From: a virus
Taxonomy: Duplodnaviria > Caudoviricetes
Strand: one strand, 5' to 3'
IMG/VR virus record: IMGVR_UViG_3300025276_000033
Coordinates: 2,012-66,011 of that record
Length of the DNA stretch: 64,000 bases
Shown: piece by piece, positions 44,616-59,699 of the stretch
Layout of the letters: every line of letters starts with the position of its first letter
Numbering within the stretch: the first letter of the stretch is position 1
Notes under the pieces: generated by a model
Database searches by the model: none
What the model was told of the DNA's origin: nothing
Seen by the model: only the letters and a program-made list of their open reading frames with translations
Translations under genes and position numbers: made by a program

Positions 44616-44708
44616 TTTTTTTTAATAAAATAAAAATCCCTAAAAATCCCTTTAACATAAGAATATAGAAATTAATTTCATTTATTTTAAAAATAAGTGC
44701 GCTAAAAG

Positions 44709-44843
44709 TTGCAATTGTCATTCTTTATGCGTATCTTGTATTTGTTGGTGAGGGTGTAATAATCCTAACAACAGTTGTTCTTTAAAAATAATTTAAAAAT
44801 AAGTGCCTTAAAAGTTGCAATTGTCAATTTAATTCGGTATCTT
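44709..44843 (+). promoter_or_regulatory. Two tandem early-type promoters (44709-44737 and 44815-44843)
   Basis: AAAAGTTGCAATTGTCA...GTATCTTGTATTTGTTGGTGAGGG direct repeat. Confidence 0.8.
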
Positions 44844-44910
44844 GTATTTGTTGGTGAGGGCATCAACATTTAATCTTAATTCATTTATAACCTAAAAAAA
44901 GGAAAAAATT

Positions 44911-46862: not shown

Positions 46863-47858
46863 ATGAATGAATACAAATTTCCGTATGAATGGACACTAAA
46901 AGATGCAGTCTTTACAAAAGATAAAGGTAAAGTTTTCAGTTGTTTTGCTTGTGGTGGTGGTTCTACTATGGGATATAAGTTAGCAGGATTTGATGTTTTA
47001 GGATGCAATGAGATTGATCCGAAAATGATTGAAGCTTACAGAACAAACCATAAACCTAAATATAGTTTTTTAGAACCTATCCAGGATTTCAAAAGTAAAA
47101 AGGATTTACCAAAAGAACTTTTCAATTTAGATATCTTAGATGGTAGTCCACCTTGTAGTAGTTTTTCTATGGCCGGACTGAGAGAAAAAGCGTGGGGTAA
47201 ACAGAAAAAATTTAGAGAAGGACAAGCTCTTCAAATATTAGATACTTTATTTTTCGATTTTATTGACCTTGCAGAAAGATTACAACCTAAAGTAGTTATC
47301 GGAGAAAACGTAAAAGGATTGTTACTAGGTAATGCAAAGAGTTATGTTGAAAAGATTTATAAGGCATTTGATAAGGCCGGTTTTATCTGTCAACACTTTT
47401 TACTAAAGGGGTCTGATATGGGCGTTCCGCAAGGAAGAGAGCGAGTTTTCTTTGTATGTCTTAGAAAAGATTTAGCAAAAAGATTTATTAAAATAAATAA
47501 TCTATTTGAAGAAAAACCTTATCTAAATTTAGATTTCAACGAAAAACCTATTCTTTCTAAGGAAGTTGTTACTAGAGGAAAACCAATAAGTAATAAAACA
47601 AGTTACCTTGAATCTAGATATGGTGACATTCTGTTTAATCCGGATAAAGTTTTCAATACTATATGTACAAGAAATAGATATTTCTATGATTTAAAACATT
47701 ATGTATCTGATGAAACATATTTGAAAGCTGGAACTTATCCTATGGATTATGACTTTGTAAAAACACAACCTTTATACTTAACAGGAATGTCTGTACCACC
47801 AGTAATGACTGCACAAGTTGTTAGTAGAGTTTATGAACAATGGTTATCAAAAATATAA
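46863..47858 (+). CDS. C5-cytosine DNA methyltransferase, family A copy 1
   Basis: FACGGG (I), GSPPCSSFS (IV), ENV (VI), PQGRERV (VIII) and GMSVPP (X). Confidence 0.92.
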   Translation: MNEYKFPYEWTLKDAVFTKDKGKVFSCFACGGGSTMGYKLAGFDVLGCNEIDPKMIEAYRTNHKPKYSFLEPIQDFKSKKDLPKELFNLDILDGSPPCSSFSMAGLREKAWGKQKKFREGQALQILDTLFFDFIDLAERLQPKVVIGENVKGLLLGNAKSYVEKIYKAFDKAGFICQHFLLKGSDMGVPQGRERVFFVCLRKDLAKRFIKINNLFEEKPYLNLDFNEKPILSKEVVTRGKPISNKTSYLESRYGDILFNPDKVFNTICTRNRYFYDLKHYVSDETYLKAGTYPMDYDFVKTQPLYLTGMSVPPVMTAQVVSRVYEQWLSKI

Positions 47859-47859
47859 T

Positions 47860-48921
47860 ATGAAAGAACCTAAGTACAATTACGAATGGACCATAAAAGA
47901 TGCAACATTTACAAAAGATAAAGGAAAAGTATTTTCTTGCTTTGCTTGTGGAGGTGGTTCTACTATGGGTTACAAGTTGTCCGGATTTGATGTTTTGGGT
48001 TGTAACGAAATAGACCCCAAAATGATTGAAGCTTACAGAGCAAATCATAAACCTAAATATAGTTTTTTAGAACCTATTCAAGATTTTAAAAATAGAAAAG
48101 ATTTACCTGAGGACCTATACAATTTAGATATCTTAGATGGGTCACCACCTTGTAGTAGTTTTTCTATGTCAGGATTGAGAGAAAAAGCATGGGGAAAGCA
48201 AAAGAAATTTAGAGAAGGTCAATCCTTGCAAGTTCTTGATACCCTATTTTTTGATTTTATTGACCTTGCAGAAAGATTACAACCTAAAGTTGTAGTTGCT
48301 GAAAATGTCAAAGGATTATTAATGGGTAATGCAAAAGAATATGTTGAAAAGATTTACAAGGCATTTGATAAGGCAGGTTTCGTTTGTCAACATTTCCTTT
48401 TGAATAGTGCTAGGATGGAAGTTCCACAAAGAAGAGAACGAGTTTTCTTTATTTGTCTTAGAAAAGATTTAGCAAAATCCTTTGCACATCAAAAAGATAT
48501 GTTTACAATTATCCCAAAACTTTCTTTGAACTTTAATTGTAAAACAATACCTTTCAAACTTATTGAAGACAATTCTGATTTGAATATAAAAGACGATACT
48601 AAAATTTCTACGTTTTGGGATTTAGTAGATGTCGGACAACAGTTTTCTAGGGCACATCCAAAAGGTAGTTTTTTTAATGATAATAAAACACACCCAGATA
48701 AACCAATAACAACAATCACTGCCGATACAGGACACGGAAGTTGGCATTATTCTATCAAAAGAAGATTGAATGATTTAGAAATAATACGAGCTGGTACATA
48801 TCCTTTAGATTATAATTTTTGTAGGAATAGACCAAAATACTTAATAGGTATGAGTGTTCCACCTATTATGACAGCACAAATTGCAGATAAAATTTACGAC
48901 CAATGGTTATCAAAGATATGA
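47860..48921 (+). CDS. C5-cytosine DNA methyltransferase, family A copy 2
   Basis: Same motifs; start set to ATG 47860 by alignment with paralogs. Confidence 0.92.
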   Translation: MKEPKYNYEWTIKDATFTKDKGKVFSCFACGGGSTMGYKLSGFDVLGCNEIDPKMIEAYRANHKPKYSFLEPIQDFKNRKDLPEDLYNLDILDGSPPCSSFSMSGLREKAWGKQKKFREGQSLQVLDTLFFDFIDLAERLQPKVVVAENVKGLLMGNAKEYVEKIYKAFDKAGFVCQHFLLNSARMEVPQRRERVFFICLRKDLAKSFAHQKDMFTIIPKLSLNFNCKTIPFKLIEDNSDLNIKDDTKISTFWDLVDVGQQFSRAHPKGSFFNDNKTHPDKPITTITADTGHGSWHYSIKRRLNDLEIIRAGTYPLDYNFCRNRPKYLIGMSVPPIMTAQIADKIYDQWLSKI

Positions 48922-49985
48922 AAGAACATAAATATAATTACGAATGGACTTTAAAAGATGCCGTCTTTACAAAAGATAGAGGTAAAGTATTTTCTTGTTT
49001 TGCTTGTGGGGGTGGTTCTACTATGGGATATAAACTTTCTGGTTTCGATGTTTTAGGATGCAATGAAATTGATCCAAGAATGATTGAAGCTTACAGAACA
49101 AACCACAAACCGAAATATAGTTTTTTAGAATCAATAACAACTTTCAAAGACCGCAAAGATTTACCTGAGGACTTGTACAATTTAGATATCTTAGATGGTA
49201 GTCCACCTTGTAGTAGTTTTAGTATGGCAGGTGTTCGTGAAAAAGCATGGGGAAAGCAAAAGAAATTTAGAGAAGGACAATCTTTACAAGTCTTAGATAC
49301 TCTATTTTTCGATTTCATTGATTTAGCAAAAGAACTCAAACCTAAAGTTGTGATTGCTGAAAATGTCAAAGGATTATTAATGGGTAATGCAAAAGAATAT
49401 GTTGAAAAGATTTATAAAGCATTCGATGAAGCCGGATATTATTGTCAACATTTTCTTTTGAACAGTTCTAAGATGTCTGTTCCACAAAGAAGAGAACGAG
49501 TTTTCTTTATTTGTCTTAGAAAAGATTTATCAAAACCTTTTATGGATCAAAAGGATTTGTTCAATAACAAACCTAAGATTAATTTAGATTTCAACGAACC
49601 TGGAATTCTTTTTGAAGAAATATATGATGGATTAGGAAAACCTATTACTGAATATAAAATGAAAGCATTTGAATGTAGGCAACCTAATGATAATGGTATT
49701 GCTGATAGTAAACGACACGCTGGAATGAAAGTTTCTGATTACAATTGTGTCTATGTTAAACACGATAAAGTAATGCCAACAATCACAGGAAAAGCTGAAC
49801 ACGCAATGTTGTTGTATAACGAACCTATAAAACCAAGTAATACCGAATTGAGAAAAGGTGGAACTTATCCTATGGATTATGAATTTAGTAATATCGGATA
49901 TTTGATTGGAATGAGTGTACCTCCTGTTATGACGGCACAAGTTGCAGATAGAATTTACGACCAATGGTTATCAAAAATAAAATAG
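48918..49985 (+). CDS. C5-cytosine DNA methyltransferase, family A copy 3
   Basis: Same motifs; ATGA overlap with copy 2. Confidence 0.92.
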   Translation: MKEHKYNYEWTLKDAVFTKDRGKVFSCFACGGGSTMGYKLSGFDVLGCNEIDPRMIEAYRTNHKPKYSFLESITTFKDRKDLPEDLYNLDILDGSPPCSSFSMAGVREKAWGKQKKFREGQSLQVLDTLFFDFIDLAKELKPKVVIAENVKGLLMGNAKEYVEKIYKAFDEAGYYCQHFLLNSSKMSVPQRRERVFFICLRKDLSKPFMDQKDLFNNKPKINLDFNEPGILFEEIYDGLGKPITEYKMKAFECRQPNDNGIADSKRHAGMKVSDYNCVYVKHDKVMPTITGKAEHAMLLYNEPIKPSNTELRKGGTYPMDYEFSNIGYLIGMSVPPVMTAQVADRIYDQWLSKIK

Positions 49986-49993
49986 AATAAAAT

Positions 49994-50812
49994 ATGAATG
50001 TACTAAGTTTATTTGATGGTATGAGTTGTGGGCAAATTGCTCTAAACAAATTAGAAATAAAATATGATAGATATTTTGCTTGTGAGATAGATAAGTTTGC
50101 AATACAAGTTGCACAACACAATTATCCATTGACTGAGCAATTAGGAAGTGTTACAGATTTAGATACTTCTGAATTACCTAAGATTGATTTATTGATAGGT
50201 GGAAGTCCTTGTCAAAGTTTTAGTAATTTAGGAAACGGAAAAGGATTTGATGGTAAGAGTGGTTTGTTTTGGGAATATGTTAGGATACTAAAAGAAACTA
50301 AACCAAAATATTTTCTTCTTGAAAATGTTGTAATGAAGAAGGAATGGCAAGCAATTATTACAGAAGCAATGGGAGTTGAACCTATAAAAATGAATAGTAG
50401 AAATGTTTCTGCACAAAACAGACCCCGTTTATTTTGGACTAATATTCCAATTACACAACCTAAAGATTTAGAAATATTTGTAAAAGATATTGTAGATACG
50501 GAAGTTGAAGATAAATATTACTTGTCTGATTTAGCAATTGCAAAAGTTCAAAGAAGTAAATTCGGTAGAGAATATGCAACATTAGATACCGAAAAGGTAA
50601 GAACATTAACGGCTGGATATTATAAGATTCCTGGAGATGGTGTTTATTTTCAAGACCATAAAGGTAAACGAAGATATACACCAACAGAATGTGAAAGACT
50701 ACAAACTGTTCCAGAAGGATATACAGAAATTTGTAGCAATTCTCAAAGATGGAAAATGTTAGGTAATGGTTGGACTGTTGATTTGATTGCCCATATATTT
50801 AAAGGAATATAA
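49994..50812 (+). CDS. C5-cytosine DNA methyltransferase, family B copy 1
   Basis: LSLFDGMSCG, GGSPCQ, ENV, QNRPR, ECERLQ and GNGWTV motifs. Confidence 0.92.
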   Translation: MNVLSLFDGMSCGQIALNKLEIKYDRYFACEIDKFAIQVAQHNYPLTEQLGSVTDLDTSELPKIDLLIGGSPCQSFSNLGNGKGFDGKSGLFWEYVRILKETKPKYFLLENVVMKKEWQAIITEAMGVEPIKMNSRNVSAQNRPRLFWTNIPITQPKDLEIFVKDIVDTEVEDKYYLSDLAIAKVQRSKFGREYATLDTEKVRTLTAGYYKIPGDGVYFQDHKGKRRYTPTECERLQTVPEGYTEICSNSQRWKMLGNGWTVDLIAHIFKGI

Positions 50813-50814
50813 TT

Positions 50815-51744
50815 ATGAATGTACTAAGTTTATTTGATGGTATGAGTTGTGGACAAATTGCCCTAAACAAAGTCGGAATAAAGTACGATAAATATTTTGC
50901 AAGTGAAATAGATAAGTATCCTATTCAAGTAACGCAAAGTAATTATCCTGATACTATTCAATTAGGTGATGTAAAAAATATTAAAGGAATTGATTTACCT
51001 AAAATTGATTTGTTGTTTGGTGGAAGTCCTTGTCAGGGATTTAGTAAAGAAGGTAAACGATTAAATTTTGAGGACCCAAGAAGTAAGTTGTTTTTTGAAT
51101 TTGTTAGAATACTTAAAGAAGTAAAACCTAAATATTTTCTTCTTGAAAATGTTAAGATGAATAAAGAAAGTCAAAATATAATATCTAAATATTTAGGAGT
51201 TGATCCGGTGCCGATAAATTCTAATACGCATTCTGCACAAAATCGACCAAGATTATATTGGACCAATATTCCTTTTGACTTAAATGTAGAAACGAAAGAT
51301 TCTTTTAAATTTAGAAATATAGTTCAAAAAGATGTTGATAAAAAATACAACCTGGACTTAAATAAATTGACCGAAAAATTCATTAAAGATAATATAGGGT
51401 TAAGGAACGTAACATTTACTGAAAAAAGAACTGAAGAAGCAAAAAGATTAAGAAAGGAATATTTTTTGAAATATGGAAAAGACTATACCCCTCGAAGATC
51501 AAAAGAACTTTTTCCAAGAACTGATGATAAATCTAATTGTTTAACAGCAACATTTTCAAATAAAGAACATTTAGTTATTGATAGTAACGGAACATTTAGA
51601 AAACTAACACCGATAGAATTTGAAAGATTGCAAACGATTCCTGACAATTATACTAATTTTGTTTCGGACAATCAAAGATATAGAATGATAGGTAATGGTT
51701 GGACTGTTGATGTTATTGCAAACATATTTAAAAATATAAAGTAG
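50815..51744 (+). CDS. C5-cytosine DNA methyltransferase, family B copy 2
   Basis: Same motifs as B1 with a longer variable region. Confidence 0.92.
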   Translation: MNVLSLFDGMSCGQIALNKVGIKYDKYFASEIDKYPIQVTQSNYPDTIQLGDVKNIKGIDLPKIDLLFGGSPCQGFSKEGKRLNFEDPRSKLFFEFVRILKEVKPKYFLLENVKMNKESQNIISKYLGVDPVPINSNTHSAQNRPRLYWTNIPFDLNVETKDSFKFRNIVQKDVDKKYNLDLNKLTEKFIKDNIGLRNVTFTEKRTEEAKRLRKEYFLKYGKDYTPRRSKELFPRTDDKSNCLTATFSNKEHLVIDSNGTFRKLTPIEFERLQTIPDNYTNFVSDNQRYRMIGNGWTVDVIANIFKNIK

Positions 51745-51745
51745 A

Positions 51746-52813
51746 ATGCATAGATATAATTACGATTGGAATTTAGAAAATATAAACTTTACAAAAGACC
51801 AAGGCAATGTTTTCAGTTGCTTTGCTTGTGGAGGTGGTTCTACTATGGGATACAAGTTAGCAGGATTTAATGTTTTAGGGTGTAACGAAATAGATCCAAA
51901 AATGATTAGTGCATATCGCAAGAATCATAAACCTAAATATAGTTTTTTAGAACCTATCCAGGATTTTAAAAATCGAAAAGATTTGCCAGAAGAATTGTAC
52001 AATCTTGATATCTTAGACGGTTCACCACCTTGTAGTAGTTTTAGTATTTCTGGCAACAGGGGAAAGGACTGGGGAAAGCAAAAGAAATTTAGAGAAGGAC
52101 AAGCTCTTCAAGTTCTTGATACCTTGTTTTTCGATTTCATTGATCTCGCTGAAGAATTGCAACCTAAAGTAGTAGTATCCGAAAATGTCAAAGGACTGTT
52201 ATTAGGTGATGCAAAAGATTATGTCGAAAAGATTTACAAGGCATTTGATAAGGCCGGATATTATTGTCAACATAAATTATTAAATGCAAAAACAATGGGT
52301 GTTCCTCAGAATAGAGAACGAGTATTTTTTGTATGTCTTAGAAAAGACCTTGCTAATAAATTACTAAATCAAAAAGATTTATTCAATGTTAAACCATATA
52401 TCAATTTAGATTTTAACGAAACAAATATTCTTTGGGAAAATATAATTGATGAAGACGATAACAATATGGATTTATCGCCATTAGATGCTGACCTTTGGGA
52501 CAAAAAAAGACCTGGAGATACAGACCTATCTGATATAAGTATAAGAGAAAGAAATATCTTATCAAGATTCAATGCAAAGTTTTTATACAAACATAAATGT
52601 GCGAACACTATTACTGGTGGAGAGCAATGCGTTTTGTATGACAAAAAAAGAAAACGAAATCACAAAGAACTTATTCAATGTTCAAGTTTTCCAAGTGATT
52701 ATGACTTTGAAAAAAACAAACCAAGTTATATGATGGGAATGTCTGTACCTCCAATAATGATTGCACAAATAGTTGATAGAATTAACACATTTTGGCTAAG
52801 AAAGTTGCTCTAA
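51746..52813 (+). CDS. C5-cytosine DNA methyltransferase, family A copy 4
   Basis: FACGGG, PPCSSFS, ENV, PQNRERV and GMSVPP motifs. Confidence 0.92.
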   Translation: MHRYNYDWNLENINFTKDQGNVFSCFACGGGSTMGYKLAGFNVLGCNEIDPKMISAYRKNHKPKYSFLEPIQDFKNRKDLPEELYNLDILDGSPPCSSFSISGNRGKDWGKQKKFREGQALQVLDTLFFDFIDLAEELQPKVVVSENVKGLLLGDAKDYVEKIYKAFDKAGYYCQHKLLNAKTMGVPQNRERVFFVCLRKDLANKLLNQKDLFNVKPYINLDFNETNILWENIIDEDDNNMDLSPLDADLWDKKRPGDTDLSDISIRERNILSRFNAKFLYKHKCANTITGGEQCVLYDKKRKRNHKELIQCSSFPSDYDFEKNKPSYMMGMSVPPIMIAQIVDRINTFWLRKLL

Positions 52814-52906: not shown

Positions 52907-53152
52907 ATGAAAGATTTAAAACTAGAAAGGTATTTGCGAGAATACAGCGACCCTGATGTGGTCGCAACACTTGAAATTGAACTGTATGTTAAAAAAGATG
53001 CTGGTGAAAACAAGGTGATTAAATTACCTTTAAGTGCTGAAAGTTCTGATATTACATTCAAAGAATTAGAAGATAGTGTGTCAGAATACTACAAAGAAAA
53101 ATACGATACTGAAGAAGTATACGGATATGATTACAAAATTATAGAAAAATAA
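52907..53152 (+). CDS. Hypothetical early protein
   Basis: ORF behind the promoter. Confidence 0.6.
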   Translation: MKDLKLERYLREYSDPDVVATLEIELYVKKDAGENKVIKLPLSAESSDITFKELEDSVSEYYKEKYDTEEVYGYDYKIIEK

Positions 53153-53164
53153 AAAACAAAAGTT

Positions 53165-53392
53165 ATGAAAAGTGATAATAAAATTACATCGAAAGTCCCC
53201 AAAGAATTGATTCCAGCTAATAGAACTTTTTTAATTGAAGAAGATGACATGTGTGTTCATATCATAAAAACCGGATTCAGTCAAAGAAAAAATTATCTAG
53301 TTGTTTTTGAAGATGCGTATCAACAGAGATTAGGAGAAACTGAAATGATGTCAGAATTAGATATCAAAAATAAATTCGGAATAATACTGTAA
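53165..53392 (+). CDS. Hypothetical protein
   Basis: ORF. Confidence 0.55.
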   Translation: MKSDNKITSKVPKELIPANRTFLIEEDDMCVHIIKTGFSQRKNYLVVFEDAYQQRLGETEMMSELDIKNKFGIIL

Positions 53393-53405
53393 ACTTCATA
53401 GAGCA

Positions 53406-53618
53406 ATGGAAGACAAGGAAAATATAAAAGAACTATTAATTAAGTTTTGTATAGTAACAAACTTTGGTGCTTGTGATGTAGAAAAATGGGTCAAAGAAAA
53501 TGGCGTAAAAAGAAAACATAGAGATACTGTAATTGATATTGAATATTTAGTAGAAATGTTTTTATTGCAACACGAAATTGATTTATTGAATGGTAAATTA
53601 AAACAATACCTAAAATAA
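53406..53618 (+). CDS. Hypothetical protein
   Basis: ORF. Confidence 0.5.
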   Translation: MEDKENIKELLIKFCIVTNFGACDVEKWVKENGVKRKHRDTVIDIEYLVEMFLLQHEIDLLNGKLKQYLK

Positions 53619-53630
53619 GTAACTCAAAAG

Positions 53631-53659
53631 TTGCAATTGTCAATTTAATTCGGTATCTT
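53631..53659 (+). promoter_or_regulatory. Early-type promoter TTGCAA-N17-TATCTT
   Basis: Spacer identical to the 44815 copy. Confidence 0.75.
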
Positions 53660-53710
53660 ATATTTGTTGATGAAGTCATCGACATATTGTTTAACCTTTA
53701 AAATACTAAA

Positions 53711-53914
53711 ATGAATACAAAAGAAAAATTATTATTAGAAAAACTTATTGATTTGGCTTTTTCTGGTTCAACTTCTGTTCTTGCTGAATGTCTTCGAGAG
53801 ATCGAAATTTGGGAAGGAGGTTGGGTTTCAAAAAATCCTTTAGATGGTTACTTTGAAGTAAGTGCTGATAATGGAATCTTAGAATTGTCACCAGATTTAG
53901 AACCTATAAAATAA
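53711..53914 (+). CDS. Hypothetical protein
   Basis: ORF behind the promoter. Confidence 0.55.
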   Translation: MNTKEKLLLEKLIDLAFSGSTSVLAECLREIEIWEGGWVSKNPLDGYFEVSADNGILELSPDLEPIK

Positions 53915-53920
53915 AAAGAT

Positions 53921-54136
53921 ATGACCGAAACTAAAATAATAAAAAACAATATGGAATTAGGAACAATACTTTTTTTAATATTTTTAGTGCTAAAATTAAC
54001 TGACAATATTGATTGGTCTTGGTGGTGGGTCACTTCTCCATTATGGATACCGATTCTGTTTGTGTTAGCATTAGGTGGCATAGGAATTGTAATTGTAATT
54101 TTAAGTGTAATCCTATCAGCAATATTTGATAGGTAA
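53921..54136 (+). CDS. Small membrane protein (LKL...IDWSWWWVTSPLWI type)
   Basis: Motif I recall from common small phage TM proteins. Confidence 0.65.
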   Translation: MTETKIIKNNMELGTILFLIFLVLKLTDNIDWSWWWVTSPLWIPILFVLALGGIGIVIVILSVILSAIFDR

Positions 54137-54148
54137 CAAACGGATGTT

Positions 54149-54304
54149 ATGAAAAAGGAATCTCGCATTAAGAAAATGTTAAAGAACTCTCAAAGAGAAC
54201 AAAGAAAAGAACAAGGGTTTTTTGATGGTAGGTTTATGCCAAGAGTTGAAGTCCCTAAAAAACGATATTCCAGAAAGAAAAAACATTTGAAATTAATTGA
54301 ATAA
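54149..54304 (+). CDS. Small basic protein of 51 aa, not in the ORF track
   Basis: MKKESRIKKMLKNSQREQRKEQGFFDGRFMPRVEVPKKRYSRKKKHLKLIE. Confidence 0.55.
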   Translation: MKKESRIKKMLKNSQREQRKEQGFFDGRFMPRVEVPKKRYSRKKKHLKLIE

Positions 54305-54401
54305 TATGGCGGTTCTGTGGCAAAACTATGGAACTAATTGCGTATATTGTAATAGATGGTGAGGGTAGTACCTTTATCACGTTTAACTAAAAACTTTTAA
54401 A

Positions 54402-54692
54402 ATGAGAAAGATAACACGAGAATCAATTGATGCGTTTAATTCAAACGTAACCTTTTCAAAAGCAAATACTACGGTTACGGTTTCTGATACTACAACGGTC
54501 TTACTACTGCACGGAAACTCTATTGCATACAAAGATATAGCAACAGGAAAAGTCGAAATCACAAATTGTGGTTGGGATACAACTACAACAAAAGAAAGAT
54601 TGAACGGTCTTGATGAAGTAGAAATACGACAAAGACAAGGACAATGGTATCTTAATGGTAACATTTGGGATGGGAATTTAATTCAAATCTAA
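54402..54692 (+). CDS. Conserved-looking phage hypothetical protein
   Basis: LHGNSIA...GW.TTTTKERLN motif. Confidence 0.65.
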   Translation: MRKITRESIDAFNSNVTFSKANTTVTVSDTTTVLLLHGNSIAYKDIATGKVEITNCGWDTTTTKERLNGLDEVEIRQRQGQWYLNGNIWDGNLIQI

Positions 54693-54715
54693 AAGTTCTA
54701 TAAAAATTAAAATTT

Positions 54716-54742
54716 AAAGGCAATCATTTGATTGTCTTTTTT
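54716..54742 (+). terminator. Rho-independent terminator
   Basis: AAAGGCAATCA...TGATTGTCTTT followed by a T-run. Confidence 0.75.
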
Positions 54743-54769
54743 GATTAAATACTAAAAGAAAATACTAGG

Positions 54770-55111
54770 ATGAGATCATTAAACGAATTTTTAAACGAAT
54801 CAGAATTAACAGAATCTAAAAGAGAAATAGGAAAATATTATAATGCTGCCAGAAAAGCAAGAGCTACAGATTTAACACAAGTAGATTCTGATTATGGTGA
54901 CTTAGTAAAATTAAGTGGTACTAAACAAAACCATACTAGAAAGAATGCTGGTGCATCATTTAACTTTATAGGTGCAGATGGAGATTGGGTAGAAATATAC
55001 TATGACGAAAAACAAGAAAAGGTTTTGATGGCGAAAAATACTGGCATCGTTAATCCAGATTTTCATACTAAAGGTAGCATTTCTATTGAAGATATGTTAA
55101 AATTAATATAA
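54770..55111 (+). CDS. LNEFLNE-tagged putative internal head protein
   Basis: MRSLNEFLNESELTES; TTAAATA at 54745. Confidence 0.7.
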   Translation: MRSLNEFLNESELTESKREIGKYYNAARKARATDLTQVDSDYGDLVKLSGTKQNHTRKNAGASFNFIGADGDWVEIYYDEKQEKVLMAKNTGIVNPDFHTKGSISIEDMLKLI

Positions 55112-55170
55112 TCATTTTACGATAAAATATATTCCATTATTACGGTATTAAATAAGAGAAACCCCATACA

Positions 55171-55347
55171 ATGACCGATTATGCACACTACGATGATTTT
55201 TTAGAATCAGTATTAGAAATTGCAAAAATAGAATACGAAATTTCAAAAGAAGAAATAGATTACAACGATGAACACTTTTTACAATGCTATCAAGAAGGAA
55301 CAAGCGCAGGACATGCTGTTTTTCTTTTGTCAAGTACTTGTTTATAA
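55171..55347 (+). CDS. Small acidic hypothetical protein of 58 aa, not in the ORF track
   Basis: MTDYAHYDDFLES...; TTAAATA upstream. Confidence 0.4.
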   Translation: MTDYAHYDDFLESVLEIAKIEYEISKEEIDYNDEHFLQCYQEGTSAGHAVFLLSSTCL

Positions 55348-55364
55348 AATATAAATAAATTACT

Positions 55365-55589
55365 ATGAATCATTGGACCGCACAATATTTGATAGACGAA
55401 AAAATGTTCTACTTAGTTGAACATAGAATAGAAGGAGTAGAAGGAGAACACTTTTTTGAAAATCTTGATGATTACAAAGAAGGTGTTATTGCATTAGCAT
55501 TGCTTAGTAAAGAAAAGAATTTACCTTTCGATATTACATTTAGAGATACCTTTTGTTTAGTATCTGATATTAATATAACCCCCTTATAA
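55365..55589 (+). CDS. Hypothetical protein
   Basis: ORF. Confidence 0.5.
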   Translation: MNHWTAQYLIDEKMFYLVEHRIEGVEGEHFFENLDDYKEGVIALALLSKEKNLPFDITFRDTFCLVSDINITPL

Positions 55590-55599
55590 AAAATAGATT

Positions 55600-55854
55600 A
55601 TGAAAAATGCAAGTATTACCATATTCAAAGATGGTGAAAATATTTTTAATTATGTTTCTGATGCAATTCCTAATGTAGGCGATTTCATAGAAATTCCAAT
55701 CACCTATGATGTTGTTTTAGGACAGGACAGATTCGAAAGTAAAAAATCTAAATTTCCTGGAAAGTTTTATGTTATTGAAAGAACATTTATTTGTAACAAA
55801 AATCAAGTTGCACTATCTGTGGTTTATGACGAACCAAAAGAATTTTTACTTTAG
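55600..55854 (+). CDS. Hypothetical protein
   Basis: ORF. Confidence 0.55.
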   Translation: MKNASITIFKDGENIFNYVSDAIPNVGDFIEIPITYDVVLGQDRFESKKSKFPGKFYVIERTFICNKNQVALSVVYDEPKEFLL

Positions 55855-55856
55855 TC

Positions 55857-56177
55857 ATGAAACAAATTACATTTGAAAAGGATTTAAAATCCGAATGGTA
55901 CGTAGTTTTACCTAATTGGCCTTTTGATAAAGATAGATTAAAGGTAGATGATGCTGCAAGTGTTTTTTGTGATATTCTGGCAAAGGATAAAAACAAGGTA
56001 ACTGTAAACATTGATGAAAAACCATTTAAAGGATATCAATATAATTTAACTTTTGTGCATCACGAAGGTGGGGGTGGAGATTACCATTTCAATTGTGGTT
56101 GTTATGATTATCCGGTTTGGTTAGGAAACAAATTCGAATTTATTTTTGGTCATTTACCTGACAATGTTTATTTATAA
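55857..56177 (+). CDS. Hypothetical protein
   Basis: WYVVLPNW...VWL...FGHLP pattern. Confidence 0.6.
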   Translation: MKQITFEKDLKSEWYVVLPNWPFDKDRLKVDDAASVFCDILAKDKNKVTVNIDEKPFKGYQYNLTFVHHEGGGGDYHFNCGCYDYPVWLGNKFEFIFGHLPDNVYL

Positions 56178-56204
56178 ATAATTTAAAAATAAGTAGTCTA
56201 AAAG

Positions 56205-56233
56205 TTGCAATTGTCACTGGGATTGCGTATCTT
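56205..56233 (+). promoter_or_regulatory. Early-type promoter TTGCAA-N17-TATCTT
   Basis: Repeated motif; downstream leader shared with 54357-54388. Confidence 0.75.
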
Positions 56234-56288
56234 GTCTTTGTTGGTGAGGGTAGTACCCCTATCGCGTTTAACTTTTAAAACTACAAAA

Positions 56289-56789
56289 ATGAATTACGAA
56301 GAAGAAAAACAAATTACTGAGGAATACAAAGAGTTGTATTCTGAACCATTAAAAAAATTAAAAGAAAGAGTACAAGGCATTTTTCCAAATGCAAAGTTTT
56401 CTGCTGAAGTCTATGTCGGTTTCGGAAATCCAACTTTATCGACAAGTTTTTATCTGATATCGGAAAAAGAAGATCAGTCTCATAACATTGTAGATAACGA
56501 TCCAGTTGCTACAAAGTTTATTGCACATTTACCGAAAATTCATCCTACTAAAGATACTAAGTTCAAATTAGAATTGCTGCGAGGTGGATTATACTTAGAA
56601 CCATCAGAAGGTTCTTACCTTGCAATGGAAAGATTGAAATTACCTTTCAGAAAAAGTACTGACGTTATTGAAAAACAAGTTGATAAGTTAGTTAAGTACT
56701 TTGAAGGTGTAGGAAAAGCTATCATTGAAAACAAAGATGTTATTTACAAAAAAGACATCAAAGATAAGTATTTAGAAATTTCAATTTAA
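56289..56789 (+). CDS. Hypothetical early protein
   Basis: Start set to ATG 56289, since the track's upstream extension lies in the promoter. Confidence 0.65.
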   Translation: MNYEEEKQITEEYKELYSEPLKKLKERVQGIFPNAKFSAEVYVGFGNPTLSTSFYLISEKEDQSHNIVDNDPVATKFIAHLPKIHPTKDTKFKLELLRGGLYLEPSEGSYLAMERLKLPFRKSTDVIEKQVDKLVKYFEGVGKAIIENKDVIYKKDIKDKYLEISI

Positions 56790-56879
56790 TTTAAAAAAAT
56801 TCACTTTAATAAAATATTTTAGTGAATTTTTGTATTATATATATAAGAAAAACAAAATACGTTCTTAGAAATATTGAAA

Positions 56880-57495
56880 AAATAAGAACCCAAGTTGCCG
56901 GGTTCTTTCTCAAAAGTATAGTTTTTTAAACGAGTTGAACTATACATCTCATTCGAGATATAGGCAAAACATTGGTAATTCAGTACCCTATGTAGTTAGG
57001 GGAGCAGGTTACACTATAATGGATAGGACATTGCTTTGACAGAAGTTTAAAACTATCAGTGTTGAAAACAAAGAGGTATTGCTGTTCGGAATATCGTAGT
57101 TGTTTTTAAAATTAGGGATTTGAGTGATTATCCTAACAAAACGAAAATGTTACAAAACCCATCAAAAGGTTCTGGACAAACAATTTAATTCATTTTAATT
57201 TGTAAACACTTATGGTATGCATTGAAGTGCCTAATCATTTGTTAGAAATAACAAGTGGTCCCGAAAGGGGTAGATGAATAGCAATTCCAGTTGTTTGAAA
57301 TTTACACTTAAAGATTTAGTACAGGCATGTATGTAAATTTGAGAGTAGAAAATGTATATCTTATTCTGTTACGGTACAGTCCAAAATCGTAGGGTAAATT
57401 GATTGAAGGTTCTTAACAAACCGTGTGCTAACTATTTTAAAAAAACGAATAGGTCAATCAAATTCAATAATCGAGTAGTGCTAGAGATTATTTTT
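56880..57495 (+). ncRNA. Candidate large structured ncRNA (ROOL/GOLLD class)
   Basis: No ORF of 60 aa or more; many helices, GAAA tetraloops and long-range crossing pairings; abuts the tRNA; ends approximate. Confidence 0.6.
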
Positions 57496-57499
57496 ATTT

Positions 57500-57576
57500 G
57501 CCGATGTAGCTCAGTTGGCTAGAGCAGCTGATTTGTAATCAGCAGGTCGTGGGTTCGAGTCCCTCCATCGGCTCCA
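57500..57576 (+). tRNA. tRNA-Thr(UGU) with encoded CCA
   Basis: Acceptor GCCGATG/CATCGGC, D-arm AGCTCAGTTGGCTAGAGC, anticodon arm CTGAT-TTGTAA-TCAG, T-loop GTTCGAG, 3' TCCA. Confidence 0.95.
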
Positions 57577-57596
57577 TATAATGTAAATTTTTATAG

Positions 57597-57797
57597 ATGA
57601 ATATAACACAAGAAGCTACAGATCAATCTTCAAAATCTGCAATATTAAAACTAACAAACTTTTCAAACTTTCAACTTCCAAAACCTTCAATCGGTTCTTA
57701 TGACATAGGTGGTACTAGAATTAGCCTTACAAAAAAACCTAATAAGTTTCATAGATTGATGGTAAAAATATTTTTAGGTTGGACCTGGAAAGATTAA
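57597..57797 (+). CDS. Hypothetical protein
   Basis: KKPN.FHR....FLGW.W motif seen in small phage proteins. Confidence 0.55.
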   Translation: MNITQEATDQSSKSAILKLTNFSNFQLPKPSIGSYDIGGTRISLTKKPNKFHRLMVKIFLGWTWKD

Positions 57798-57819
57798 ATA
57801 ACAAAACAAATAACTAAAA

Positions 57820-58221
57820 ATGAAATCAATAAACGAATTTATAAACGAAGGACTTAAAGATAAATTTTTAAATCTTTTCAAGAAAAAAGATAAAGATGAA
57901 AGAATAGTAAATCGTTCAGTAGTGGGAACCTATGAAGTAACTAAATCATTTCATAATGGATTTAAAGATTACTTTGATGTTGGAGATAAAATTTCTATTG
58001 ATTATGAGGTTAAATATCCAAATAGAAAGGATAAAAAATATGAACACTATGTTATTTATCATATGCCAATAAAGGGAGAGGACTTAAATATGGAAATTTT
58101 CAATGCAAATAACCAAGAAAACTACGACAGTGTATTATCAAATCTAAAAAAGATTTCAAATAAACCAGACACATCATTGACGAATAGACATTTTGGATTA
58201 TCACAAAATTACTATACATGA
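57820..58221 (+). CDS. Tagged putative internal head protein (MKSINEFINEG)
   Basis: Tag; TTAAATA at 57794 overlapping the upstream stop. Confidence 0.7.
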   Translation: MKSINEFINEGLKDKFLNLFKKKDKDERIVNRSVVGTYEVTKSFHNGFKDYFDVGDKISIDYEVKYPNRKDKKYEHYVIYHMPIKGEDLNMEIFNANNQENYDSVLSNLKKISNKPDTSLTNRHFGLSQNYYT

Positions 58222-58245
58222 TACAAATTAATTGAAATTATATTA

Positions 58246-58283
58246 AAGGAATACTTGCAAAAGTGTTCCTTTTTTCGTATATT
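58246..58283 (+). promoter_or_regulatory. Terminator hairpin overlapping an early-type promoter (TTGCAA 58255, TATATT 58278)
   Basis: AAGGAATACTT...AAGTGTTCCTT plus T-run, with the -35 element spanning the loop. Confidence 0.65.
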
Positions 58284-58308
58284 ACTAATCTAATCTAAAA
58301 GAGATACT

Positions 58309-59226
58309 ATGAATTTAGGATACGCATGTATAAATCAAACACTTTCAAAAGATAAGATTACATCTAACAGGGGCATGATTAAAAGAACCTTTATTGCAAA
58401 AGGAATGCCTTACTGTTCTGAACTTGCTTTGCAAAATGTCAGAGACCTTTTCAAAATAGTTCAATGGAACACAAGAAACAAAATCAAAGTTTTCAGAATG
58501 TCTTCGAATATATTTCCGTGGATGTCCGAATACGAATTGACCGATTTACAAGATTGGCCAAAGATTGAAAACATTCTAAAAGCAATAGGTAAACACGCAA
58601 ACGAAAATGATGTTCGTTTATCTTTTCATCCAGGACCGTTCAATATTCTTTGTTCACCAAAAATAGAAGTTGTTGAAAAGACTATCAAAGAACTTGACCA
58701 ACATTGTTTCATTCTCGATACTATGGGATTAGAAATTTCAAGAAAGCACAAAGTCAATATTCATATCGGAGGTGCATATGGCGACAAAGATTCTGCAATG
58801 AATAGATGGATCGACAATTTCAAAAGACTATCCGACAGTGCTAAAAAAAGATTGACTATTGAAAATGATGACAAACTTTCAATGTATGCAGTAGAAGATT
58901 TACTTTATGTTTCTAAAAAAACAAATGTTCCTATTGTGTTCGATTTTCATCATCACGATTGTCATCCTGGAATATTGACAAAAGAACAAGCATTGAAAAG
59001 TGCATTAGAAACTTGGCCAAAAGATATTATTCCAATGACACATTACAGTTCATCAAGAAAGATATACGAAGATTCTACTGTAAAGAATGTTGCACATGCA
59101 GATTACTTGTATGAGCCAATTCCTTTTACAGACAAATATGTTTTTGATGTAGTCTTAGAAACTAAAGCAAAGGAACTTGCAAGAATTAAATACCTTAAAG
59201 AATTTACATTATATGAAACCACTTAA
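58309..59226 (+). CDS. uvsE: UV damage endonuclease (UvsE/UvdE)
   Basis: LGYACIN, FRMSS, RLSFHPG, IHIGG, IENDD, FDFHHH, HYSSS and HADY motifs. Confidence 0.92.
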   Translation: MNLGYACINQTLSKDKITSNRGMIKRTFIAKGMPYCSELALQNVRDLFKIVQWNTRNKIKVFRMSSNIFPWMSEYELTDLQDWPKIENILKAIGKHANENDVRLSFHPGPFNILCSPKIEVVEKTIKELDQHCFILDTMGLEISRKHKVNIHIGGAYGDKDSAMNRWIDNFKRLSDSAKKRLTIENDDKLSMYAVEDLLYVSKKTNVPIVFDFHHHDCHPGILTKEQALKSALETWPKDIIPMTHYSSSRKIYEDSTVKNVAHADYLYEPIPFTDKYVFDVVLETKAKELARIKYLKEFTLYETT

Positions 59227-59686
59227 CGAATTTTTAAATGACGAAAAACAATATACTAAGTTAAACGAAGGTAAGATGCATACTATTGTAAGTGAATTGG
59301 CAACCGAATTTAAAGCTGAAGTTAAAACTAATCAATATGATTGGGCATTAGAACCTTTTATGACAAATAAAGTTTGGACTAAGATGAATGGTAGAAAATA
59401 TAAAGAACCAGGAAAATTTCGTGTTAACATATATAGAAATGATGATAAAGAAACCGTTGATGAGAAACGACAAGTACAAAATAATTTTTGGCCTTGGTTG
59501 ATAAAACAATCAGGAGTTAAATCTATGGGCGAAGTTAGTGGAGAATTCGAGGGTGCTGGTTATAGTGAAGCTGTAGAATATAAAGGTGTTGTATTTATTA
59601 AAAGAAAAGACACAGATAAATATACAATAACAGAATACTTTTCTAAAGGTAGATTTAAAAATTCTGGAATGTGGAATCAAAAATAA
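59213..59686 (+). CDS. Tagged putative internal head protein (MKPLNEFLND...KLNEG)
   Basis: ATG 59213; TTAAATA at 59186 inside the end of uvsE. Confidence 0.7.
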   Translation: MKPLNEFLNDEKQYTKLNEGKMHTIVSELATEFKAEVKTNQYDWALEPFMTNKVWTKMNGRKYKEPGKFRVNIYRNDDKETVDEKRQVQNNFWPWLIKQSGVKSMGEVSGEFEGAGYSEAVEYKGVVFIKRKDTDKYTITEYFSKGRFKNSGMWNQK

Positions 59687-59699
59687 AGATATAAAAATT

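What the first reader, a model, noticed from the sequence alone, without database searches (positions are those of the whole stretch)
56880..57495. About 620 nt of ornate, pseudoknotted non-coding RNA candidate directly upstream of tRNA-Thr
Seen: the largest ORF-free gap in the window is full of pairings. Local helices: AAGAACCC 56884/GGGTTCTT 56900; GTATAGTT 56916/AACTATAC 56938; ATCTC/GAGAT; CCCTA/TAGGG; GAAAACAA 57064/TTGTTTTT 57100; TTGTTA-GAAA-TAACAA 57239; CCC-GAAA-GGG 57260; AAATTTACA 57298/TGTAAATTT 57332; TTGATTGA 57399/TCAATCAA 57454. Long-range: ATTGCTGTTC 57078 (inside a hairpin loop) pairs with GAATAGCAAT 57276. CTGGA 57172 and CAAACAA 57177 pair with TCCAG 57286 and TTGTTTG 57291 in crossing order. 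The G-U pairs and GAAA loops favour the + strand. Known: ROOL (about 600 nt) and GOLLD (about 800 nt) RNAs are large phage- and tRNA-associated ncRNAs of unknown function. Inference: a member of these or a new class.
Basis: partly seen in the sequence, partly recalled or inferred. Interest (0 to 1): 0.85.

Follow-up and report, generated by a model that had tools for sequence, protein, structure and literature searches.

The report
Abundant large RNA of marine phage
An uncultured marine phage of the giant-phage type has a conserved stretch of about 590 bases that codes for no protein but appears as a discrete, plentiful RNA in ocean RNA surveys; it fits no catalogued RNA family, and its fold and function are still unproven.

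Summary
The gap is real. 56790-57596 is the largest ORF-free stretch in the window, at 807 nt against 277 nt for the next. It sits in a 30% GC marine myovirus fragment whose capsid protein is distantly related to Lak megaphages.

No Rfam 15 family matches except tRNA-Thr, so ROOL, GOLLD, introns, RNase P and tmRNA are all negative.

Four marine metatranscriptomes each hold one contig of 579-628 nt. Each starts at 56900-56902 and ends at 57480, 57487 or 57529, while all DNA contigs run on.

Four metagenome homologs are 94-99.9% identical. The RNA diverges 4.8-5.9% with no codon periodicity and has 1-2 nt indels. Third codon positions of most neighbouring genes diverge 13-19%. Two homologs lack the tRNA.

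The + strand folds better than shuffles (z -3.1); the - strand does not. Against other windows of this phage the fold is only -1.7 SD. The homologs are too alike to prove a fold, and they do not support the proposed pseudoknot.

Verdict: a real, selected, abundant phage ncRNA of a new class. Whether it is ornate is unproven.

The parts
56792..56834 (+). Hairpin plus T-run just after the stop of ORF 56205-56789; probably the terminator of the upstream gene
   Evidence: Inverted repeat I1, arms 56792-56811/56815-56834, 85% complementary. Unchanged in all 5 sequences. The analogous hairpin plus T-run lies before ORF 61519.
56828..56863 (+). Conserved A/T-rich motif containing TATATAAGAAA, shared with 61461-61514; a candidate promoter of unknown type (inferred)
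   Evidence: Window 56810-56863 matches window 61461-61514 at 80%. The only two exact copies of the 11-mer in the window are at 56840 and 61491. The upstream region 56790-56901 diverges only 3.6% among homologs.
56884..56907 (+). Invariant 8-bp hairpin AAGAACCC/GGGTTCTT; the RNA contigs begin inside its 3' arm
   Evidence: Sequence. Invariant in 5 of 5 sequences. RNA-library contigs start at 56900 or 56902.
56902..57487 (+). Body of the non-coding RNA, about 586 nt, as delimited by contigs of RNA libraries
   Evidence: Contigs 56902-57529 (X15), 56902-57487 (X16), 56900-57487 (X17) and 56902-57480 (X19). Homologs L034, L035, L036 and L038. Divergence 0.048-0.059 without codon periodicity. No Rfam match.
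57211..57269 (+). Fully conserved block holding a TATGG...CCTAA element that resembles a tetraloop receptor (resemblance recalled), then two adjacent GAAA-capped hairpins
   Evidence: Sequence. Hairpin pair probabilities 0.99 and 0.96. Only one column in this block varies among the 5 sequences. The TATGG-N5-30-CCTAA pattern occurs 7 times in the window against 2.4 expected, so it is only a weak hint.
57180..57203 (+). Hairpin whose U:U mismatch is removed by matched one-base deletions on both arms in L034, L035 and L038
   Evidence: Alignment: ACAATTTAA/TTAATTTGT in the window, ACAGTTAA/TTAATTGT in the three variants.
57488..57499 (+). U-rich spacer between the RNA's 3' end and the tRNA
   Evidence: Sequence. 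A U-rich tract is also present at the same place in the homologs without the tRNA.
57500..57576 (+). tRNA-Thr(TGT); a facultative neighbour, co-assembled with the RNA in one RNA library
   Evidence: ARAGORN and Rfam, 71.8 bits. Present in L036; absent from L034 and L038. The X15 contig runs 56902-57529.

Best explanation
56902-57487 (+) is the gene of a stand-alone RNA of about 586 nt that codes for no protein. It belongs to an uncultured marine myovirus with giant-phage affinities.

Shown:
- RNA libraries hold it as a discrete molecule whose ends coincide with the borders of the ORF-free gap.
- It evolves more slowly than the third codon positions of most neighbouring genes (UvdE in L038 has a lower total divergence), with no codon pattern and with frame-breaking indels.
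- It keeps its place when the neighbouring tRNA is absent.
- Only its + strand folds better than shuffled sequence.

Inferred:
- Transcription starts in the conserved 110 nt upstream.
- The 5' end at 56900-56902 is either a start site for an unrecognised promoter type or a cut inside the invariant hairpin 56884-56907.
- Where tRNA-Thr follows, some transcripts run into it. RNase P cleavage plus 3' trimming would then leave the end at 57486/57487. Where the tRNA is absent, the U-rich tract at the same place would end the transcript.
- The mature RNA is a compact bundle of short hairpins that accumulates during infection. It acts in trans, like the other abundant large phage RNAs (ROOL, GOLLD, the ICP1 RNA, the phage K RNAs). 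My best guess is that it is a folded particle or scaffold that binds a component of the translation apparatus. It is not a cis-regulator.

That it is a real, selected RNA I put at about 0.85. The trans-acting particle role I put at about 0.35.
For: 1. Transcript.
- Six RNA-seq runs from 4 studies hold 0.68-0.77 of the sampled words of 56800-57600. Fourteen DNA runs hold 0.90-0.97. The RNA part is 586-628 of those 801 nt.
- I laid 4 of the 6 RNA runs, one per study. Each gives one contig covering 56902-57529 (depth 18.4), 56902-57487 (166.3), 56900-57487 (166) or 56902-57480 (145), with 1-2 differing letters.
- Contigs from several studies begin at one place where all five DNA contigs run on. 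The tool rates this as a weak hint.
- In X16 and X17 the contig carries 21 extra letters beyond 57487. X17's are printed as a loose end, and I recognise them, from memory, as Illumina adapter. That means fragments really end there.

2. Selection.
- RNA divergence from the window is 0.059 (L034), 0.059 (L038) and 0.048 (L035), flat over the three phases.
- Third codon positions of the flanking genes diverge 0.065-0.258, mostly 0.13-0.19.
- Indels of 1, 1 and 2 nt lie inside the RNA.
- The longest stop-to-stop frame is 46 aa in the window, and the frames differ between homologs.

3. Strand.
- Fold z is -3.1 on + against -0.96 on -; for 56880-57495 it is -4.19 against -1.75.
- Among transitions at Watson-Crick pairs of the window's own MFE, 10 give G.U on the + strand and 4 would do so on the - strand.
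- All neighbouring genes and the tRNA are on +.
- The X15 contig joins the RNA to the first 30 nt of the tRNA.

4. Independence from the tRNA. L034 and L038 keep the RNA at 94% identity, and it is followed directly by the homolog of ORF 57597.

5. Local structure.
- Of 13 substituted columns in short-range pairs of the window's MFE, 10 keep the pair, 1 is mixed and 2 break it.
- Hairpin loops at 56951-54 and 57160-67 change while their stems stay the same.
- Matched deletions remove a U:U mismatch in hairpin 57180-57203.

6. Kind. ROOL and GOLLD are phage RNAs often found near tRNA islands, and ROOL can be as abundant as 16S rRNA (10.1101/2024.12.08.627333, passages). ICP1's most abundant transcript is an ORF-less RNA of about 800 nt (PMC7567579, passages). 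Phage K has abundant lncRNAs beside tRNA genes (PMC9241854, passage).
Against: - No covariation proof. The five sequences form essentially two lineages.
- RNAalifold finds 1 pair of 183 with changes on both sides.
- The 118 pairs common to all single-sequence folds have none, and that set is circular by construction.
- Variable columns are not depleted in paired columns of the window's MFE: 28 of 47 variable columns, against 354 of 597 columns paired.
- Of 10 substituted long-range pairs, 6 break.
- The window MFE and the alignment consensus disagree on most long-range helices.
- Folding energy is only -1.7 SD against other windows of this phage.
- Contigs cannot give strand, level or exact ends. 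The runs were chosen because they hold this stretch. X16 and X17 share several contigs with identical depths and may be one data set.
- The 3' end is not uniform: 57480, 57487 or 57529.
- No recognisable promoter lies before 56900 (and my reading).
- No relative outside one narrow phage lineage was found.
- Nothing in hand bears directly on function.
Confidence: 0.55

Rival explanations
1. A stable by-product. The stretch would be the leader or spacer of a strongly promoted tRNA-Thr or downstream transcript. It would survive because it is hairpin-rich, and would have no function of its own.
For: One RNA contig joins it to the tRNA. No function has been shown. Folding is only moderately unusual for this phage. 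No covariation.
Against: It is retained at 94% identity where the tRNA is absent. It diverges more slowly than the third codon positions of most flanking genes, and has invariant blocks of 50-80 nt.
Confidence: 0.15
2. A cis-acting leader, that is a long 5' UTR or riboswitch-like element, controlling ORF 57597-57797 and the genes after it.
For: In L034 and L038 the RNA ends about 35 nt before the start codon of the ORF 57597 homolog. A U-rich tract at its end could be a regulated terminator.
Against: In the window and in L036 a tRNA gene lies between the RNA and that ORF. The RNA contigs of three of the four runs end at 57480-57487 rather than running on. About 590 nt is far longer than known leaders. 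No Rfam cis-regulatory family matches.
Confidence: 0.08
3. The selected object is DNA, for example a replication origin, a packaging site or a cluster of protein-binding sites. On this view transcription is incidental or serves priming.
For: A/T-rich non-coding DNA with many inverted repeats. Conservation alone cannot tell DNA from RNA.
Against: A discrete RNA-library contig with sharp common borders. Folding is strand-asymmetric, and substitutions lean towards G.U on the + strand at 10 to 4. Cumulative GC skew runs on unchanged through the region.
Confidence: 0.06
4. A very divergent member of ROOL or GOLLD that the Rfam models miss.
For: The context is the same: phage, next to a tRNA, abundant. 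The length is close to ROOL's mean of 581 nt (PMC5737381, passages).
Against: Neither family appears even at E<=10 with permissive filters on 1 kb, nor in the four homologs at gathering score. It is shorter than GOLLD, which exceeds 800 nt.
Confidence: 0.03
5. The transcript is made from the - strand.
For: Contigs carry no strand. The - strand has a terminator-like hairpin plus T-run at 56907-56884.
Against: The - strand folds no better than shuffles: z -0.96, with 23 of 120 shuffles as good. The contigs stop at 56900-56902, inside that hairpin rather than after it. No - strand genes lie nearby. Substitutions lean the other way.
Confidence: 0.03
6. It encodes one or more small proteins.
For: ORFs of 34 and 39 aa with TTG starts exist on the + strand.
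Against: Divergence shows no codon periodicity. A 1-nt insertion in L034 and L038 falls inside ORF 56935-57039. The other ORF runs into the tRNA, which is absent from two homologs. The open frames differ between homologs.
Confidence: 0.02

Closest known systems
ROOL RNA (Rumen-Originating, Ornate, Large)
   Same: Encoded by phages and prophages, often near tRNAs. Mean length 581 nt against about 586 nt here. Can be very abundant. Function unknown (PMC5737381 and 10.1101/2024.12.08.627333, passages).
   Different: No match to the Rfam model at any threshold tried. [quoted passage not shown] The hosts known for ROOL are not marine Bacteroidota-type phages.
GOLLD RNA
   Same: A large phage-borne RNA near tRNAs. 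Marine examples exist downstream of a tRNA. It accumulates during lysis.
   Different: No Rfam match. GOLLD usually exceeds 800 nt and has a universally conserved 3' region. Here the tRNA lies downstream of the RNA and is facultative.
The unclassified abundant ncRNA of about 800 nt in Vibrio phage ICP1, and the lncRNAs of Staphylococcus phage K
   Same: ORF-less gaps in lytic phages that give the most abundant, or very abundant, transcripts with no assigned family or function. The phage K RNAs lie beside tRNA genes (PMC7567579 and PMC9241854, passages).
   Different: No sequence similarity. A blastn search of 50,697 phage records matched only the tRNA part of the query. The hosts and phage lineages differ.
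Stable RNAs C and D of the phage T4 tRNA cluster
   Same: Non-tRNA stable RNAs co-transcribed with phage tRNAs and released by tRNA-processing enzymes.
   Different: They are much shorter, about 120-140 nt as I recall. The RNA here persists without the tRNA.

Membership tests
ROOL RNA (Rfam) | Match to the family's covariance model at its gathering score | tested here: not met
   cmscan of the whole window at gathering score returns only tRNA. A 1-kb scan at E<=10 with permissive filters has no ROOL row. The four homologous loci return only tRNA.
ROOL RNA (Rfam) | [quoted passage not shown] | tested here: inconclusive
   The folds disagree on long-range helices. Only 1 of 183 pairs has a two-sided change. 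The one pseudoknot that could be tested is not supported.
ROOL RNA (Rfam) | Phage or prophage context, often near tRNAs; length near 581 nt | tested here: met
   Portal, protease, major head and sheath genes lie in the window. tRNA-Thr is 12 nt downstream. The contigs are 579-628 nt. The tRNA is absent from 2 of the 3 homologs that run past the RNA.
GOLLD RNA (Rfam) | Match to the covariance model, including the universally conserved 3' region | tested here: not met
   No GOLLD row.
GOLLD RNA (Rfam) | Length commonly above 800 nt | tested here: not met
   About 586 nt by contig borders. The whole ORF-free gap, including the tRNA, is 807 nt.
Group I / group II introns | Match to the intron models and insertion within a host gene, with exons on both sides | tested here: not met
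   No intron family at E<=10. Upstream is a terminated ORF and intergenic DNA, and downstream is an intact tRNA of 71.8 bits. No joints appear in the RNA contigs (table 5).
tmRNA, RNase P RNA, 6S RNA, SRP RNA | Match to the Rfam models or an ARAGORN tmRNA call | tested here: not met
   ARAGORN finds only tRNA-Thr. Rfam finds nothing.
Kind: abundant large phage-encoded ncRNA (no single family) | An ORF-free phage locus of 500 nt or more that yields a discrete transcript | tested here: met
   (no ORF). (one contig per RNA library with common borders; contigs only, so level and strand are not measured).
Kind: abundant large phage-encoded ncRNA (no single family) | A conserved higher-order structure supported by covariation | tested here: inconclusive
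   Only 4 distinct sequences at 94% identity or more.

The most novel reading that the evidence does not exclude
This would be the founding member of a new class of large phage RNAs. On this reading a huge phage of marine Bacteroidota-type hosts makes it in such amounts that it is assembled on its own from ocean metatranscriptomes of several years and studies. It would fold, by way of its GAAA loops and the receptor-like element in its invariant core, into a compact and possibly multimeric particle like the ROOL and GOLLD cages. That particle would capture a host translation component during infection.
Probability: 0.15. Interest if true: 0.85.

Novelty: new variant of a known kind. Interest (0 to 1): 0.6.

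Why it matters
Large bacterial and phage RNAs of unknown function are rare, and ROOL and GOLLD turned out to build RNA-only cages. This case has three useful properties. It comes with expression evidence from natural communities. It comes from a phage group, marine giant-type phages of probably Bacteroidota hosts, where no such RNA is described. And it is short enough, at about 586 nt, to transcribe and examine by probing or cryo-EM. If its fold is confirmed, it adds an independent class that can test whether abundant large RNAs are a general phage strategy and what they bind. It also shows that metatranscriptome assemblies can pick such RNAs out when comparative data are too thin for covariation.

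Tried and rejected
- Rfam. Nothing except tRNA in the whole window at gathering score, in 1 kb at E<=10, or in the four homologous loci. The rows at E 2.9-8.8 (HPnc0580, RybB, wcaG) are at chance level.
- GenBank phages by blastn. 697 records matched, all through the tRNA part; 0 covered 80% or more of the query.
- Relatives of the phage. Eight records found through the major head protein (45-87% identity) and one through the upstream protein (71%; there other genes follow, with no RNA and no tRNA). blastn of the RNA against these 9 records gave a best E of 0.0117, and that place lies inside a 270-aa ORF.
- 14 viral loci that share a 37-mer of the tRNA. nhmmer found none and the best blastn E was 0.19.
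- 80 viral loci around UvdE homologs (847,545 nt). nhmmer found none at E<=10; blastn found only an 18-nt A/T-rich match.
- The downstream 133-aa protein has no relative in viral contigs.
- Exact-pattern scans of viral contigs with four RNA stretches gave 0 hits each (one search used the tRNA).
- An 18-mer in genome contigs gave 9 stretches. None extends beyond the seed.
- The metagenome scan gave 8 stretches: 4 true homologs and 4 chance matches.
- Covariance model R1 (57201-57348, 45 pairs) was run against 18 viral records. The best E was 0.42. L034, L035, L036 and L038 were not held and were not searched.
- Cover of the flanks in the RNA runs. Outside 56738-57805 only short pieces at depth 2-3.7 were laid, some with 0-1 differences and some with 8-12. 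Most bins had no cover.
- The 5'/3' terminal helix that both folds predict. I rejected it as evidence because ends of folded RNAs tend to meet anyway, the two folds pair different bases, and the GAGA to GGTT change in three homologs breaks one version.
- TATGG...CCTAA as a tetraloop receptor. There are 7 matches in the window against 2.4 expected, so it is only a weak hint.
- Internal direct repeats are short and not colinear. I did not pursue them.
- No T9SS or other family was found for ORF 61804, so that host clue fell away.
- Literature. Four searches listed no paper describing this RNA or any large ncRNA of marine huge phages. I read only passages of four papers. Supplements are closed and may hold ROOL and GOLLD alignments that I could not compare.
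Full report
**Setting**

The window is 64 kb of a 66,011-base IMG/VR virus record. The record is classed linear, and CheckV puts its completeness at 28%. GC content is 26-34%. PHROGs names portal, head maturation protease, major head protein and tail sheath genes. The major head protein is nearest to a 462-kb uncultured phage (43.5% identity over 98% of its length) and to the Prevotella Lak megaphages (33%). Only 3 of 62 + strand ORFs of 100 aa or more have a Shine-Dalgarno-like 4-mer in positions -20 to -4, against a background of 0.09, and these leaders are 55% A. As I recall, that pattern fits Bacteroidota-type translation starts. It is a host hint, not a proof. The runs that hold the stretch are marine.

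**The observation**

56790-57596 is the largest stretch without an ORF of 50 aa or more on either strand: 807 nt, against 277 nt for the next. tRNA-Thr(TGT) lies at 57500-57576 on +. The listed helices are all in the sequence, and most recur in the MFE fold with high pair probabilities.

The + strand folds better than dinucleotide shuffles and the - strand does not:

| Stretch | + strand | - strand |
|---|---|---|
| 56880-57495 | z -4.19, 0 of 20 shuffles as good | z -1.75, 2 of 20 |
| 56902-57487 | z -3.1, 1 of 120 | z -0.96, 23 of 120 |

A stricter control compares the stretch with 217 other 586-nt windows of the same phage after regression on GC. That puts it at only -1.7 SD. Windows overlapping the stretch rank 1st and 8th of the 217 by residual. 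The fold signal is therefore real but moderate.

**Known families**

Rfam 15 gives nothing except the tRNA. This holds for the whole window at gathering scores, for 1 kb at E<=10 with permissive filters, and for the four homologous loci. ARAGORN finds no tmRNA. ROOL, GOLLD, group I and II introns, RNase P, 6S and the marine motifs of Rfam are therefore not met.

**Expression**

The stretch 56800-57600 is held by 20 of the 24 listed public runs, from 12 studies.
- 14 runs are DNA-type. One may be the source sample, which leaves 13 runs in 7 studies. They hold 0.90-0.97 of the sampled words.
- 6 runs are metatranscriptomes from 4 studies. They hold only 0.68-0.77 of the words, which is the share expected if they hold the RNA part alone.

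I laid one RNA run from each of the 4 studies on 53000-61000 at 85% likeness. Each holds a single contig over the gap:

| Run | Contig on the window | Depth |
|---|---|---|
| X15 | 56902-57529 | 18.4 |
| X16 | 56902-57487 | 166.3 |
| X17 | 56900-57487 | 166 |
| X19 | 56902-57480 | 145 |

Each contig has 1-2 letters that differ from the window. All five DNA contigs (the window, L034, L035, L036, L038) run on through 56900. The tool rates a common stop of RNA contigs from several studies as a weak hint.

In X16 and X17 the contig carries 21 further letters beyond 57487. X17's are printed as a loose end, and I recognise them, from memory, as Illumina adapter. That means fragments end at 57486/57487. 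No joints were reported, so there is no sign of a circular or spliced form.

Caveats:
- Contigs give no strand, level or exact ends.
- The runs were found through this very stretch.
- X16 and X17 share contigs with identical depths and may be one data set.
- The lack of cover on the flanks is reported under Tried and rejected, as the tool requires.

**Homologs and selection**

One scan of metagenome contigs with an 18-mer gave 8 stretches, of which 4 are homologs: L036 (99.9% identity), L035 (95.3%), L034 (94.1%) and L038 (94.0%).

| Locus | RNA divergence from the window | By phase |
|---|---|---|
| L034 | 0.059 | 0.057 / 0.067 / 0.052 |
| L038 | 0.059 | 0.067 / 0.062 / 0.046 |
| L035 | 0.048 | 0.052 / 0.047 / 0.046 |

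By comparison, third codon positions of the flanking genes diverge 0.065-0.258, mostly 0.13-0.19, and their totals are 0.039-0.182. The 112 nt upstream of the RNA diverge 0.036.

Indels of 1, 1 and 2 nt lie inside the RNA. The longest stop-to-stop frame is 46 aa in the window, and the frames differ between homologs. Long blocks of the RNA never vary, for example 56955-57037, 57039-57098 and 57201-57250. The stretch is therefore non-coding and under purifying selection.

**The tRNA is facultative**

L036 has tRNA-Thr. L034 and L038 do not: there the RNA's U-rich end is followed after about 35 nt by the start of the ORF 57597 homolog. The L035 contig ends at the RNA's 3' end. In another relative, L003, the homolog of the upstream protein (71% identity) is followed by unrelated genes, with neither RNA nor tRNA.

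**Structure from comparison**

- 47 of 597 columns vary.
- 28 of those fall in paired columns of the window's own MFE, where 354 of 597 columns are paired. There is no depletion.
- I set aside the 5 columns of the hairpin with indels, which leaves 23 substituted paired columns.
- Of the 13 in short-range pairs, 10 keep the pair, 1 is mixed and 2 break it.
- Of the 10 in long-range pairs, 4 keep it and 6 break it.
- Loops of the hairpins at 56946-59 and 57156-71 change while their stems stay the same.
- In hairpin 57180-57203, three homologs lose one base on each arm, which removes a U:U mismatch.
- RNAalifold finds 183 pairs, and one of them (57111/57471, A-U against G-C) has changes on both sides. 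That helix competes with a different pairing of 57111-57132 found in all single-sequence folds.
- The 118 pairs common to all five single folds show no two-sided change, and that set is circular by construction.
The local hairpin 57280-85/57290-95 keeps both pairs.

Conclusion: a set of local hairpins is plausible and mildly supported. The higher-order fold is open. 'Ornate' and 'pseudoknotted' are unproven.

**Strand**

The + strand is favoured by five observations:
- the fold asymmetry;
- the 10 to 4 lean of transitions towards G.U on +;
- the orientation of every neighbouring gene;
- the X15 contig that runs into the tRNA;
- the contigs stopping inside, not after, the only terminator-like site on the - strand.

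**How it probably works**

This part is inferred. A hairpin plus T-run ends the upstream gene. After it comes a conserved A/T-rich motif that recurs before ORF 61519. I take this motif as a candidate promoter of a type the sigma-70 scan does not recognise. The 5' end at 56900-56902 is either the start site or a cut in the invariant hairpin 56884-56907. The 3' end at 57486/57487 would arise by ending in the U-rich tract, or, where the tRNA follows, by RNase P cleavage and trimming.

The RNA then accumulates. By kind it sits with ROOL and GOLLD, which are phage RNAs near tRNA islands. ROOL is as abundant as 16S rRNA in one strain, and both form cages. It also sits with the unclassified abundant RNAs of ICP1 and phage K. 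I therefore commit to a trans-acting folded RNA particle that binds a translation-related partner, with about 0.35 confidence in that part and about 0.85 that it is a real, selected RNA.

**Reach of the family**

No relative was found outside this lineage. The searches covered GenBank phages, 9 related viral records, 14 loci sharing the tRNA 37-mer, 80 UvdE loci, 18 viral records with a covariance model, exact scans of viral contigs and an 18-mer scan of 185,579 species' genomes. All of these are limited to near-identity or to small samples, so absence is not shown.

**Novelty and score**

Four literature searches listed no description of this RNA. It is a new class within a known kind, the large abundant phage ncRNAs. 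I score interest at 0.6. The expression and selection evidence make it worth bench work, but the fold, the breadth of the family and the function are all open.

Noticed in passing
window 57376: All four RNA-library contigs read G where the window and the four metagenome DNA homologs read A. The change would turn a U-A pair of either candidate helix into U.G. It could be a strain allele or an RNA-level change. The tool warns that a DNA run from the same sample is needed to tell.
   Followed up: partly
window 57488-57596; L034 12835-12880; L038 about 8265-8310: tRNA-Thr(TGT) is present after the RNA in the window and in L036, but absent from L034 and L038 at the same place. This is a presence/absence polymorphism of a phage tRNA gene. 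The L035 contig breaks exactly there.
   Followed up: partly
window 46863-52813: Six consecutive genes all match Pfam PF00145, C-5 cytosine DNA methylase (E 1e-40 to 1e-50). They cross-match each other at 73-84% DNA identity. This is a tandem array of paralogous methyltransferases.
   Followed up: partly
window 44683-44867, 53612-53728, 54337-54404, 56186-56309, 63924-64000 and others: Short DNA segments of about 60-120 nt recur at 75-87% identity at or before gene starts. Many small ORFs share an N-terminus of the type M-K/R-x-L/I-N-E-F-L/I-N-E (54770, 57820, 59177, 59700, 60892, 61224). This looks like a paralogous small-protein family or a shared start module.
   Followed up: no
window 56810-56863 and 61461-61514: A 54-nt intergenic module is shared at 80% identity. 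It consists of a hairpin plus T-run followed by a motif that includes TATATAAGAAA. The window's only two exact copies of that 11-mer are in these two places. It is possibly a terminator-promoter cassette.
   Followed up: partly
window, starts of 62 + strand ORFs: Shine-Dalgarno-like 4-mers occur before only 3 of 62 ORFs, against a background of 0.09, and the leaders are 55% A. Together with the head protein's kinship to Lak megaphages, this points to a Bacteroidota-type host.
   Followed up: partly
window 58309-59226: A phage-borne UV-damage endonuclease (Pfam UvdE, E 7.7e-63). 280 viral stretches encode relatives.
   Followed up: no
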